Shown here in pieces: positions 24,001 to 27,000 of a stretch of DNA of 29,623 bases; position 1 is the stretch's first letter, and every line of letters starts with the position of its first letter. The position numbers are program-made. The stretch comes from Bdellovibrionota bacterium (lineage in GTDB: Bacteria > Bdellovibrionota_C > UBA2361 > JBIKWN01): the NCBI GenBank assembly GCA_044356295.1, contig JBIKWN010000030.1, positions 1-29,623 of the forward strand. Reading direction: 5' to 3'.

Positions 24001-27000
24001 TGGATAGAGCCTTGCCCTGGTGAAATTTGTGCTACGTGTTGAACTGAATTTTGTATTGTTGTCTCAATAGGAATTCCAAGTGCACCCTCAATTTGATTTT
24101 TAGTAATAGCCCCGGGTCGTAAAATAATAGGTTTTTTTGCATTCAAAAGTGAAAGTACTGTTGATTCAATGCCTACGTTGCAGGTTCCACCTTCTAAGAT
24201 ATAAGGAGTATCGTCACTAAATTCCTTTCTCACATGGTCACTTGTGGTTGGGCTTATATAGTTTGAGCGATTAGCACTTGGAGCTGCGAGAGGAAAGGGG
24301 ATTTTATTTAGTAGTTCAAGAGTAACAGGATGATTGGGAATCCTTAGTGCTACTGACTGATGGCCAGCAGAGATAATATCAGGAATGAGAAAAGATTTCG
24401 GAACAACAACTGTTAAGGATCCTGGCCAAAAAGGTTTGAGTTTTTCAAGTAATGGCACAATTTCATGTGCTGAATTTTTATCAATAAAGGGAAGCATTTT
24501 TTCAATGCTCGGAACATGACAAATAAGCGGATTTGTTGCTGGGCGATTCTTTAAGGTAAAAATCTTTTGAACTGCTTTTTCATTAAGTGCATTTGCAGCA
24601 AGTCCATAAACTGTTTCTGTTGGAATGACAACAAGCTCTCCATTCGTTAATAACGTAACAGCCTTATCCATTTGCAACTGCATCGAATTGATTCCTATCT
24701 TGAAGCTGTGTCTTAAATGCATCTGACTCGATTAGTTCCTCTGCGAGCTGTTGAGAAAGAGCCACTAACGTATCTTCATTAGCCTGTAAAAGCATCTGTG
24801 CAATTTTTATATGGATATCAGGGTTAGGACTCGCTAAAAGACGGTCAATAGGATCAAGTGAAGATTCATTGATCGTTCTTGATTGCATCAAGGGGTGTAG
24901 TTTTGATTCATCAAGATATCGGTCTTTAGGAAGGTACTGATAGCGGTGAAAAAACGCGAAATGCCAAGGAAGGAACTGCATAATTCGTCGAATTCCCTTT
25001 TCGTCATCTCTAAAATGTTCTTTCAAAAATTTAGTAAAAAGAAAAAGAATCTCTACTCTTTCTTTAGGTGAAAATTGCAGTGTTTTTGATTCATTAATTT
25101 CTTGGAACAACCAAGGTTTAATTAACGCTCCCCTACCAAGCATAATGCCATCAACGTGAGATTGTTCTAGTCGCGCCTCTGCTTCGTAGTGAGTAAGTAT
25201 ATCGCCGTTTCCTATAACTGGAATTTTTACAGCTGCTTTAACCTCTGCGATAGCTTGCCAATCGGCTGCACGACTATAGCGTTGTTCCCTTGTTCTTCCA
25301 TGAACAGTAATAGCACTTGCACCGGCACGTTCTGCTGCGAGTGCTGATTCAATAAAGTTTTTTTCATCTTCTTTCCAACCTAATCGAATTTTTACAGTCA
25401 CCGGAACTGAAATTTTTGAAACCATACCAGAGACTAATGATTCAATTGTGCGAGTTTTTTTTAAAAGACTCGCTCCAAGTCCACGACGTGTTGTGTCTTC
25501 AATAGGGCAGCCACAATTTATATCTATAAAATCTGCACCCATATCGATTGCAATTTTTGCAGCTTCTGTTGCTTCGATTGGATCTTTCGCAGCTAGTTGC
25601 ACACCAAATATTTTTTCATCTGCATGACGTCTTAATAGTGCTTTTTCTCGCACTTCGCCTTTTACGACAAACCTTGCATAAGCCATCTCTGATACTGTAA
25701 TAGCAGCGCCAAAATGGCAGCAAAGTCTGCGAAAGGGGAGGTTACCCCCCTTGGTTAAAGGGGCTAAAATAACGGAGTTTTTGAAATTTATTGGCATGAT
25801 CTTTTAGTTAACTATTTGATATTACTCTAGATAATTATTTATCTATTTTCTGAAATGAAAACTCTTCTCTTTTTTTAAGCACGTGCCGATTACACTCCTT
25901 ATAGGAACCTAAAGAAAGTCGTTCTTAAGGTTTCTTGAACATTATTTCGGAGAAATTATGAAAAATAAACTAAGCCTTTACCTTTTACTTTCAGCACTTA
26001 TTGTAGTTGGTTTCGTAGCACCTGTATTCGCTGATCATCATGAAGGTGACCACAAAAAAGAAGAGCATAAAGATGGTGAGCATCACGACGGAGATCACCA
26101 CGAAGAGAAGAAATAATTTTTCCTAGTCTACTTCTTAGTAGGCTTAGTTAAGAGAAGGGAGGCGAAAGCCTCCCTTTTTAATTGAGCATCTCTGCTTTTT
26201 AATTATAAATTAATCAGCATTAATTCTTTGAAACTCTGCAAATTCTCTCGAAAAATGCTCTCTGTAATCAGCAATACCAGCGTTGATAACTGCTTTTGCT
26301 TCATCTGCACCGTAAACTCCAGCGATATAAACATTTTTCTTTTCAGTTCCAGGAAGATCTTTATACGTTAAAAAGTAGTGTTTAAGTCTATTAATAAACT
26401 GTTCTGGGCAATCATTGATATCTCGGTATTGCCCGAATAAACCATCATTGTGTAGCACTGCAATAATTTTATCGTCAGCTTCACCTTTATCAATCATTCG
26501 AATGCCGCCAATTGGTCTTGCTTTCATAAGCATTCCGCCACGAGTAATCGGACGCTCTGTTAAAACACAGATATCGATAGGATCGCCATCTCCCTTTACT
26601 TTGTCACCCGTTGCTTTTTCGGCAATTAATGCAACTTTTTCAGCTGCATATGTTTGAGGGATAAACCCATAAAGAGTTGGACACTGAGAAGAAAACGAAA
26701 GAGGTCTATCAACGAAGATATGACCACTTGGTTTATGAATTTCATATTTAATAACGTCAGTAGGGAGTATTTCAATAAATGAATAAACCAAATCAGGAGC
26801 ATCTTCTCCGACGGTAATACCATGCCATGGGTGTGCTCTATACAATGCTTGTGTCATACTTTTTGTTCAGCCAATAAAGAATTAAGATAGCTTTCATTAC
26901 GATTCTAAAAGCCGTTCAGTATAACAACTATGATATCAGCCCACAAACTTACTAAATCTTTTACCATAACAAAAAAAAATCCAGGCTTTGTCGGATCGCT

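What a model noticed while it worked through the whole genome (the two positions that open the first line are those of the whole stretch)
24664..25797. A eukaryote-type Dus3 (D47) dihydrouridine synthase in a bacterium, beside a normal DusB
g00079 is a tRNA-dihydrouridine synthase of the Dus3 subfamily, described as eukaryote-only: it has the Dus3 signature and is closer to animal and fungal Dus3 than to bacterial Dus, but lacks the N-terminal zinc-finger extension. It belongs to a large bacterial clade and sits in a tRNA-modification neighbourhood (next to sua5), predicting D47 in bacterial tRNA or marking the bacterial sister group of Dus3.
Evidence so far: All five Swiss-Prot hits are Dus3 (37-42%, E 1e-62 to 1e-68) while the genome's other Dus (g02536) hits bacterial Dus; E. 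coli DusB scores lower, E 5e-50. N-terminus LAPLTKGGNLPFRR matches the Dus3-specific motif LTTVGNPPFRR of PMC3674756, which states that Dus3 holds eukaryotic sequences. 1,511 relatives at E<=1e-70, named ones from Planctomycetota, Bdellovibrionota, Armatimonadetes; 115 of the top 120 carry the motif; 4 of 41 class genomes.
(Added by a program. Inside this text positions count along the whole contig: contig position 1 is position 1 of the stretch shown here. "Call 12" and the like, gene names such as g00115 and contig names such as C1 are that model's own, and its searches are not shown. The text may have been shortened before it was handed on; [...] marks where a part breaks off. The agent that wrote the report below was given it as the finding of a first reader that could run no searches.)

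Follow-up and report, generated by a model that had tools for sequence, protein, structure and literature searches.

The report
Bacterial Dus3-type tRNA-modifying enzyme
This bacterial gene encodes a tRNA-modifying enzyme whose closest relatives are the Dus3 enzymes of animals, fungi and plants rather than the usual bacterial ones, so Dus3 has a large family of untested bacterial cousins and may have come to eukaryotes from bacteria.

Summary
Confirmed. The 377-aa gene at 24664-25797 (-) is an intact Dus flavoenzyme without zinc fingers. In three trees it forms one clade with eukaryotic Dus3 (100/99, 100/97, 100/100). Grouping it with DusB is rejected (AU p=0.0002), and 21 residues are shared only with Dus3 against 1 with DusB. 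The genome's second Dus is DusB. The clade is patchy: 12 of 124 genomes in this phylum, 20/301, 24/251 and 6/301 in three others. A short copy with leader peptides sits inside it in algae, one named a diatom.

Corrections: the sua5 neighbour is confined to this genus. Bacterial D47 is already known from B. subtilis DusB1. JGI names and a published supplementary table already put some bacteria under Dus3. Whether Dus3 is sister to the clade or nested in it is open (p=0.42). The target is untested; D47 about 55%. The scan noted this clade before in another genome (e1-6580293).

The parts
24664..25797 (-). Dus3-type tRNA-dihydrouridine synthase gene, 377 aa: FMN-binding TIM barrel (about aa 8-236), helical domain and Dus3-type C-terminal extension (about aa 244-356), no N-terminal zinc fingers
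   Evidence: (pLDDT 95, pTM 0.92)
25726..25767 (-). Dus3 signature, aa 11-24 (LAPLTKGGNLPFRR)
   Evidence: L14, T15 and N19 are among the 21 residues shared only with eukaryotic Dus3
25504..25518 (-). Catalytic NxGCP motif, aa 94-98, with Cys97 as the predicted general acid
   Evidence: N94, C97, P98 invariant in 94 relatives; role from PMC3674756
25276..25302 (-). HGRTREQRY, aa 166-174: HxR motif plus Tyr174, which aligns with E. coli DusC Tyr176 (uracil O2 contact)
24763..25068 (-). Helical domain and extension, aa 244-345, holding Dus3-only residues R247, H261, D265, F275, F282, R285, Y286, R307; presumed tRNA-orienting part
   Evidence: role of the helical domain from PMC5814906
23709..24671 (-). 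sua5 (TsaC2, t6A pathway). The probable start codon at 24671 overlaps the dus stop codon by 8 bases, suggesting translational coupling (inferred). A genus-level neighbour, not conserved in the clade
23154..23702 (-). RmlC-like cupin (dTDP-sugar epimerase family), third gene of the probable operon, 6 bases after the sua5 stop

Best explanation
The gene encodes an active, stand-alone FMN-dependent tRNA-dihydrouridine synthase of a patchy multi-phylum bacterial clade that is the closest prokaryotic relative of eukaryotic Dus3/DUS3L. Chemistry (inferred from conserved residues and the family): NADPH reduces the bound FMN, the flavin passes a hydride to C6 of a flipped-out uridine held by Asn94 and Tyr174, and Cys97 protonates C5. 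Target (inferred): because it keeps the Dus3-specific surface in both barrel and helical domain, it most likely binds tRNA as Dus3 does and makes D47 in the variable loop beside G46, while the genome's DusB handles the D-loop. History (inferred): an old offshoot of the DusB radiation that spread patchily among bacteria, gave eukaryotes Dus3 before their last common ancestor (zinc fingers added later), and separately gave algae a second, short, probably organelle-targeted copy. Shown: identity, intact active site, fold, clade membership, coexistence with DusB. Not shown: activity, target, direction of transfer.
For: Trees, IQ-TREE LG+C20 PMSF: bacterial Dus3-like + algal short form + eukaryotic Dus3 at 100/99 (80 rows; bootstrap flagged as rough), 100/97 (63 rows), 100/100 against DusB alone (47 rows). 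Holding it with DusB costs 101 lnL units, AU p=0.0002. 21 columns are shared only by the bacterial group and Dus3, 1 only with DusB, 0 by Dus3 and Dus1/2/4 against it. Profiles not containing the query score it 364 bits (Dus3), 300 (DusB), 216 (Dus1/2/4). Atlas structure: TM 0.85 over 342-346 residues to Dus3 clusters, 0.77-0.78 over 310-313 to DusB-type clusters. Active-site motifs invariant. 29 of 30 carrier genomes hold another Dus and 25 of 30 a DusB-type one, which fits a separate job. The genome has 24 tRNAs with G46-U47 among 28 with a 5-base variable loop and a TrmB gene. 7 of 106 eukaryotic Dus3 hits lack the Pfam DUS3L zinc finger, Leishmania among them, and T. brucei has acp3D47, so the fingers may be dispensable.
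Against: No experiment exists. Site specificity changes within Dus subfamilies: E. coli DusB makes D17 only, B. subtilis DusB1 makes D17, 20, 20a and 47. In 2 carriers this is the only Dus found (G088, one 2.28-Mb contig, 82% complete; G014), which would fit a D-loop or multi-site role. U47 is common in all bacteria (about 90%), so the tRNA count is only permissive. The protein lacks the N-terminal half of Dus3 and differs at three fixed columns (F262/W, W278/E, H329/W). The genome also has a DTW-family gene that in E. coli puts acp3U at 47 (cited). Sister versus nested is unresolved (AU p=0.42).
Confidence: 0.55

Rival explanations
1. Same ancestry, different job: the enzyme is the bacterial relative of Dus3 but modifies D-loop uridines or several sites (as B. 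subtilis DusB1 does), and strict D47 specificity arose only in eukaryotes with the zinc fingers.
For: Sole Dus in G088 and G014. DusB1 multi-site precedent. No zinc fingers. This genome has no DusA, DusC or DusB2-type enzyme although its tRNAs have U20/U20a, so a D20 job may be open.
Against: Usually present beside DusB and often a third paralogue. Eight of the 21 Dus3-only residues lie in the helical domain or its extension, the part that orients tRNA.
Confidence: 0.3
2. The clade is the stem of all eukaryotic Dus enzymes: one bacterial Dus3-like gene entered the eukaryote ancestor and Dus2, Dus1 and Dus4 diverged from it quickly, as in the 2012 scenario with Dus3 as the ancestral eukaryotic enzyme.
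For: Forcing Dus1-4 together is not rejected (lnL 42.6 lower, AU p=0.0535), and that tree puts all four inside the bacterial Dus3-like group. Dus1/2/4 are sister to the Dus3 clade at 85/94 in one tree. The Dus2, Dus1 and Dus4 starts share the LP[FM]R element.
Against: 0 of 200 bootstrap trees join Dus3 with Dus1/2/4 alone; 45 of 200 make Dus1/2/4 sister to the whole Dus3 clade. No column is shared by Dus3 and Dus1/2/4 against the bacterial group, and only 1 by all three against other bacterial Dus. A Dus3 profile scores DusB (170 bits) above human Dus2 (111).
Confidence: 0.2
3. The direction is the reverse: an early eukaryotic Dus3 passed to bacteria, lost its zinc fingers and spread by horizontal transfer, helped by predatory or host-associated lifestyles.
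For: Patchy presence: 12/124, 20/301, 24/251, 6/301. A tree in which the bacterial proteins form one clade sister to Dus3 is not rejected (p=0.42).
Against: Eukaryotic Dus3 is monophyletic at 100/98-100 with no bacterial protein inside it, so any transfer would predate crown eukaryotes. The bacterial side holds at least five deep, well-supported sublineages, and the bacterial proteins score higher on a DusB profile than eukaryotic Dus3 does (median 273 against 224 bits).
Confidence: 0.15
4. An ordinary divergent DusB whose likeness to Dus3 is convergence or a long-branch artefact, or a eukaryotic contig binned by mistake.
For: NCBIfam's best model is DusB (277 bits) and DusB tops the solved-structure searches, but no Dus3 structure is in that library.
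Against: AU p=0.0002; no long branches flagged; 21 shared residues. The gene has no intron, sits in a bacterial operon with matching GC, has the same neighbours in a second genome of the genus and is bridged by an independent run.
Confidence: 0.03

Closest known systems
Eukaryotic Dus3p / DUS3L, tRNA-dihydrouridine(47) synthase (KOG2333)
   Same: One clade in all three trees; N-terminal signature; 21 diagnostic residues; Dus3-type C-terminal extension; 36-43% identity over about 89% of the query.
   Different: No N-terminal CCCH zinc fingers or disordered region (377 aa against mostly 660-800 among the hits over 660 aa); LTKGGN for LTTVGN; FLPWH for FLLEW; bacterial host; D47 activity untested.
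Bacterial DusB (E. coli DusB, D17; B. subtilis DusB1, D17/20/20a/47)
   Same: Stand-alone TIM barrel plus helical domain; best curated model and best solved structure; B. subtilis DusB1 already reaches U47.
   Different: Below the TIGR00737 cut-off; grouping rejected; Tyr174 and Glu100 where E. coli DusB has Phe177 and Lys103; longer C-terminus; the genome has a separate DusB.
DusA, DusC, DusB2-type and eukaryotic Dus1/2/4
   Same: Catalytic NxGCP, KxR and HxR motifs and fold.
   Different: Far lower scores (DusC 126 and DusA 75 BLAST bits; human Dus2 81 bits) and separate clades.
Unremarked database labels: JGI 'tRNA-dihydrouridine synthase 3'; Table S1 of PMC9775027
   Same: Bacterial proteins already carry a Dus3 label (25 of 120 hits). 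The table gives Dus3=1 for Fibrobacter succinogenes, Caldisericum exile, Chlamydia trachomatis and Neisseria meningitidis, and 3 for Ostreococcus tauri.
   Different: Neither describes a clade. That paper's text says Dus1-4 are eukaryotic, and the table looks noisy (Neisseria has Dus3 but no DusC; Helicobacter has Dus1). I could not fetch those four genomes to test them.

Membership tests
Dus family (COG0042, PF01207) | FMN TIM barrel plus helical domain | tested here: met
   Pfam E 4e-76; model pLDDT 95; Foldseek top hits are all Dus structures
Dus family (COG0042, PF01207) | NxGCP, KxR and HxR catalytic motifs | tested here: met
   N94-C97-P98, K136-R138, H166-R168, invariant in 94 relatives; motifs
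Dus3 subfamily | N-terminal LTTVGN(P/L)PFRR signature | tested here: met
   8 of 11 to the printed motif, 9 of 11 to the commonest eukaryotic form; positions 3-4 differ (KG for TV)
Dus3 subfamily | Groups with Dus3 to the exclusion of DusA/B/C and Dus1/2/4 | tested here: met
   100/99, 100/97; 200 of 200 bootstrap trees read. One alternative that adds Dus1/2/4 inside the clade is not rejected (p=0.0535)
Dus3 subfamily | Lies inside crown eukaryotic Dus3 | tested here: not met
   Eukaryotic Dus3 is monophyletic without it, 100/98-100
Dus3 subfamily | N-terminal zinc finger(s) and long disordered extension | tested here: not met
   No PF25585 or CCCH; the domain starts at about residue 8. 99 of 106 eukaryotic hits have PF25585
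Dus3 subfamily | Forms D47 in the tRNA variable loop | not testable with these tools
   Needs biochemistry; G46-U47 substrates exist, 24 of 28
DusB | Passes TIGR00737 and groups with DusB | tested here: not met
   277 < 293.3 bits; AU p=0.0002
DusA / DusC | Passes their NCBIfam models | tested here: not met
   114.5 against 269 and 127.5 against 395 bits
Archaeal Dus | Placement relative to archaeal and Asgard Dus | not tested
   No named archaeal Dus was in the trees; the query has NxGCP and HxR, not the archaeal variants described

The most novel reading that the evidence does not exclude
A ninth Dus subfamily: zinc-finger-free bacterial D47 synthases from which eukaryotes took Dus3 before their last common ancestor, possibly from a Myxococcota-type donor (a Bradymonadales-labelled subgroup is sister to Dus3 at 99/81 and its model matches Dus3 at TM 0.93-0.94, but the link dissolves), and from which algae took a second, probably plastid-targeted copy. 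In genomes like this one, which also carry a DTW acp-transferase, the pair could make acp3D47, so far reported only from trypanosomes in what I read.
Probability: 0.3. Interest if true: 0.78.

Novelty: new variant of a known kind. Interest (0 to 1): 0.58.

Why it matters
The standing classification has eight Dus subfamilies, with Dus1-4 eukaryotic and Dus3 the ancestral eukaryotic enzyme. A multi-phylum bacterial clade joined to Dus3 breaks that scheme and gives a testable origin for a eukaryotic tRNA and mRNA writer tied to meiosis and cancer-cell fitness. No Dus3 structure was in the PDB copies searched. A compact 340-380-aa bacterial version would be a good handle on how an enzyme reaches the variable loop and on what the zinc fingers add. 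It also predicts dedicated D47, or acp3D47, in bacteria, where D47 is known from one B. subtilis tRNA, and points to an unstudied algal organelle enzyme. The chemistry itself is ordinary, automated labels already hint at the group, and the carriers I could name are uncultured, which limits the score.

Tried and rejected
Conserved tRNA-modification neighbourhood: rejected. tblastn of sua5, rmlC and ppa against 87 stretches (80 GTDB loci, 49 of them at least 8.4 kb, plus 7 longer stretches) hit only one same-genus genome, seen twice. Of 72 adjacent ORFs from 39 loci (10 of 49 chosen loci gave none), 32 had a Pfam family, none Sua5, and two were RNA-modification types (GidB, U32). A first neighbourhood script timed out.

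Mobile element: no Dus3-type hit among 81 plasmid and 40 phage records with a Dus match; none covered 80% of the query. A viral-contig scan with the eukaryotic Dus3 alignment gave 1 DusB-type fragment; two motif scans of viral contigs gave 11 stretches, none Dus.

Mutual exclusion with the acp3U47 writer: no signal. DTW is in 5 of 12 carriers and 58 of 112 non-carriers (kin not independent).

Replacement of DusB: not general. Where carriers lack a DusB1-type gene (family f20), non-carrier relatives appear to lack it too.

Bradymonadales as the donor: 97/74 and 99/81 in two trees, unresolved in the third; Dus3-conserved columns are shared with that subgroup alone 5 times and with the query's subgroup alone 20 times. 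Kept as a lead only.

Nesting of Dus3 inside the bacterial group: seen in the best trees but not significant (the first try returned nothing).

C-terminal glycine as a Dus3 mark: 108 of 120 bacterial hits and 39 of 106 eukaryotic, but also 27 of 74 other bacterial Dus; not diagnostic.

Promoter and terminator scan: at chance level. Expression: no RNA holder listed. No tRNA gene in the window.

Literature: eight searches found no paper describing a bacterial Dus3 clade. The library lacks most subscription papers; the 2022 ACS Chem Biol review, the 2021 Mollicutes paper and the alignment supplement of PMC3674756 were not read.

Full report
**Observation.** The ORF at 24664-25797 (-) encodes 377 aa. 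It is a Dus protein (Pfam E 4.2e-76) that passes none of the NCBIfam DusA, DusB or DusC cut-offs. The catalytic motifs named in PMC3674756 (text parts 1-4 of 7 read) are intact: N94-C97-P98, K136-R138, H166-R168, all invariant in an alignment of 94 relatives. An AlphaFold2 model has pLDDT 95.0 and shows a TIM barrel from residue 8, a helical domain and extra C-terminal helices; its best PDB matches are DusB, T. maritima Dus and DusC. There is no room for zinc fingers. The genome (93.6% complete) has 2 Dus matches; the second groups with DusB. The gene is not a binning accident: GC and GC3 match its neighbours, a same-genus genome has the same gene order, and an independent run has a contig over 24470-25730 with no difference.

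**Relatives.** The top 120 near hits are of one type; 114 carry the signature and 25 are named 'tRNA-dihydrouridine synthase 3' by JGI. Among proteins over 660 aa, the first 14 hits are the same short type with extensions or fusions and the next 106 are eukaryotic Dus3 at 36-43% identity. A profile search of 1.84 billion representatives likewise listed short-type proteins and then canonical Dus3 in its best 150. A pattern scan of 185,579 species genomes confirmed 401 stretches; the best 80 are mostly labelled Planctomycetota, with Bdellovibrionota, Acidobacteriota, Vulcanimicrobiota and others. The nearest is labelled Bdellovibrionota, 78% identical. Profile surveys at a threshold that excludes DusB found carriers in 12 of 124 genomes of this phylum, 20 of 301 around a Planctomycetota-labelled genome, 24 of 251 around an Acidobacteriota-labelled one, 6 of 301 around a deltaproteobacterial one, and 18 of 113 in the class of a genome whose protein NCBI calls Bradymonadales. 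Each survey includes its carrier centre, and few candidates were scored per genome, so these are rough lower bounds.

[quoted passage not shown] From 163 aligned rows I ran subsets of 80, 63 and 47 rows, chosen by hand for spread; one N-terminally cut row was dropped and one mislabelled row corrected. The bacterial group, an algal short form and eukaryotic Dus3 form one clade at 100/99 (bootstrap flagged as not fully settled) and 100/97, and are split from DusB at 100/100. Holding the bacterial group with DusB is rejected (p=0.0002). Columns shared only by the bacterial group and Dus3 number 21, against 1 shared with DusB. Three points stay open. Dus1-4 monophyly is not rejected (p=0.0535), and in that tree all four sit inside the bacterial group. 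A sister rather than nested position of Dus3 is not rejected (p=0.42). The Bradymonadales-type subgroup is sister to Dus3 in two trees (97/74, 99/81) but not in the third, although its C-terminal part is closer to Dus3 (36% against 28%) and its Atlas model matches Dus3 at TM 0.93-0.94. The deepest row, P0349, is an unnamed intermediate that scores higher on DusB than on Dus3. No named archaeal Dus was included.

**An algal copy.** Proteins with 25-140 extra N-terminal residues form a clade (100/99) inside the query's subgroup (100/97-99). One cluster holds a Nitzschia protein and another a marine-eukaryote transcript; the rest are unnamed. Several starts look like signal or transit peptides by eye; no targeting predictor was run, so plastid targeting is an inference. 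This may explain the 3 'Dus3' counted for Ostreococcus in Table S1 of PMC9775027.

**Neighbourhood.** The sua5 start probably overlaps the dus stop by 8 bases and rmlC follows 6 bases later, so this is likely an operon. It is local: sua5 recurs in one same-genus genome among 87 stretches and not among 72 neighbours of 39 other loci. It says little about function.

**How it most likely works.** The chemistry follows the family: NADPH reduces FMN, hydride goes to C6, and the cysteine protonates C5. Tyr174 aligns with DusC Tyr176, which contacts the uracil (passages). The helical domain is described as a major tRNA-recognition module, and eight of the 21 Dus3-only residues lie there or just after it, which is the main reason to expect a Dus3-like docking on the variable loop. 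The enzyme usually sits beside a DusB (25 of 30 carriers). The genome has 24 G46-U47 tRNAs among 28 with a 5-base loop, of 37 found, a TrmB gene and a DTW gene. The DTW gene need not compete, since trypanosomes make acp3D47 (passages). Against D47: specificity drifts within Dus subfamilies (passages), the enzyme is the only Dus found in 2 carriers, and the passages I read do not say whether the zinc fingers are needed. I put D47 as the main product at about 55%, D-loop or multi-site at 30%.

**What is known.** Main texts treat Dus1-4 as eukaryotic (passages or sections). D47 in bacteria is known from one B. subtilis tRNA and is made by DusB1. Table S1 of PMC9775027 (read in full) scores four bacteria as Dus3 without comment and appears noisy. 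Eight searches found no description of this clade; subscription papers and unread supplements could hold one. After my first two trees I found that this scan had reached the same reading on another genome (e1-6580293); that is not independent support.

**Verdict.** Real and well supported as the bacterial relative of Dus3. It fails two Dus3 membership features (zinc fingers, position inside crown Dus3), so I file it as Dus3-type, a new variant of a known enzyme family. Its target and the direction of transfer are testable and untested. Interest 0.58.

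Noticed in passing
P0241-P0246, P0249, P0255, P0256, P0264, P0267, P0127-P0134: Algal short-form Dus3-type proteins with leader peptides, nested in the bacterial clade; at least six are fused to a C-terminal tRNA-binding OB domain (PF01588). Probably organelle enzymes gained by transfer from bacteria.
   Followed up: partly
P0121-P0126: Bacterial Dus3-type enzyme fused to a purine-nucleoside phosphorylase domain (PF01048); one is labelled Candidatus Bruticola.
   Followed up: no
L340-L357: Bradymonadales-type subgroup in which the usual LAP start reads (M/L)GS, the catalytic motif reads N[CA]ACP, and the C-terminal part is the most Dus3-like among bacteria.
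   Followed up: partly
L116, L118-L121, L123-L126, L132, L133: A third, long-branched Dus paralogue in Planctomycetota-labelled genomes, with a QAALSGYSD start in place of LAPM; it fits none of DusA, DusC or typical DusB.
   Followed up: no
G088:C1 (L313, L319) and G014: Genomes in which the Dus3-type gene is the only Dus found; G088 is one contig of 2.28 Mb.
   Followed up: partly
window 25958-26116 (+) and 26142-26187: A 52-aa ORF with a signal-peptide-like start and a His/Asp/Glu/Lys-rich tail, divergent from the dus gene, followed by a strong hairpin (-29.3 kcal/mol, z -6.75) that could end both it and the convergent ppa gene. Possibly a small metal-binding protein.
   Followed up: partly
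window 11554-19661 (+): A tightly packed run of genes, mostly without Pfam family, including a hexapeptide-repeat protein, DUF6754 and a MutL/GlmL-like (PF13941) protein.
   Followed up: no
window 2239-9238 (+): Cluster with an aldose epimerase, a GNAT-type protein, a PLP decarboxylase, a double ATP-grasp ligase and a NUDIX hydrolase, which looks like a small-molecule or peptide biosynthesis operon.
   Followed up: no
G028:C11:209361-210272 (L134) and G074:C42 (L147): Dus genes split over reading frames (a DusB in G028, the Dus3-type gene in G074); assembly error or frameshift not resolved.
   Followed up: no
G000 C102:19770-20315 and class survey: DTW-family genes occur in 63 of 124 genomes of this class, often in two or three copies.
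   Followed up: partly
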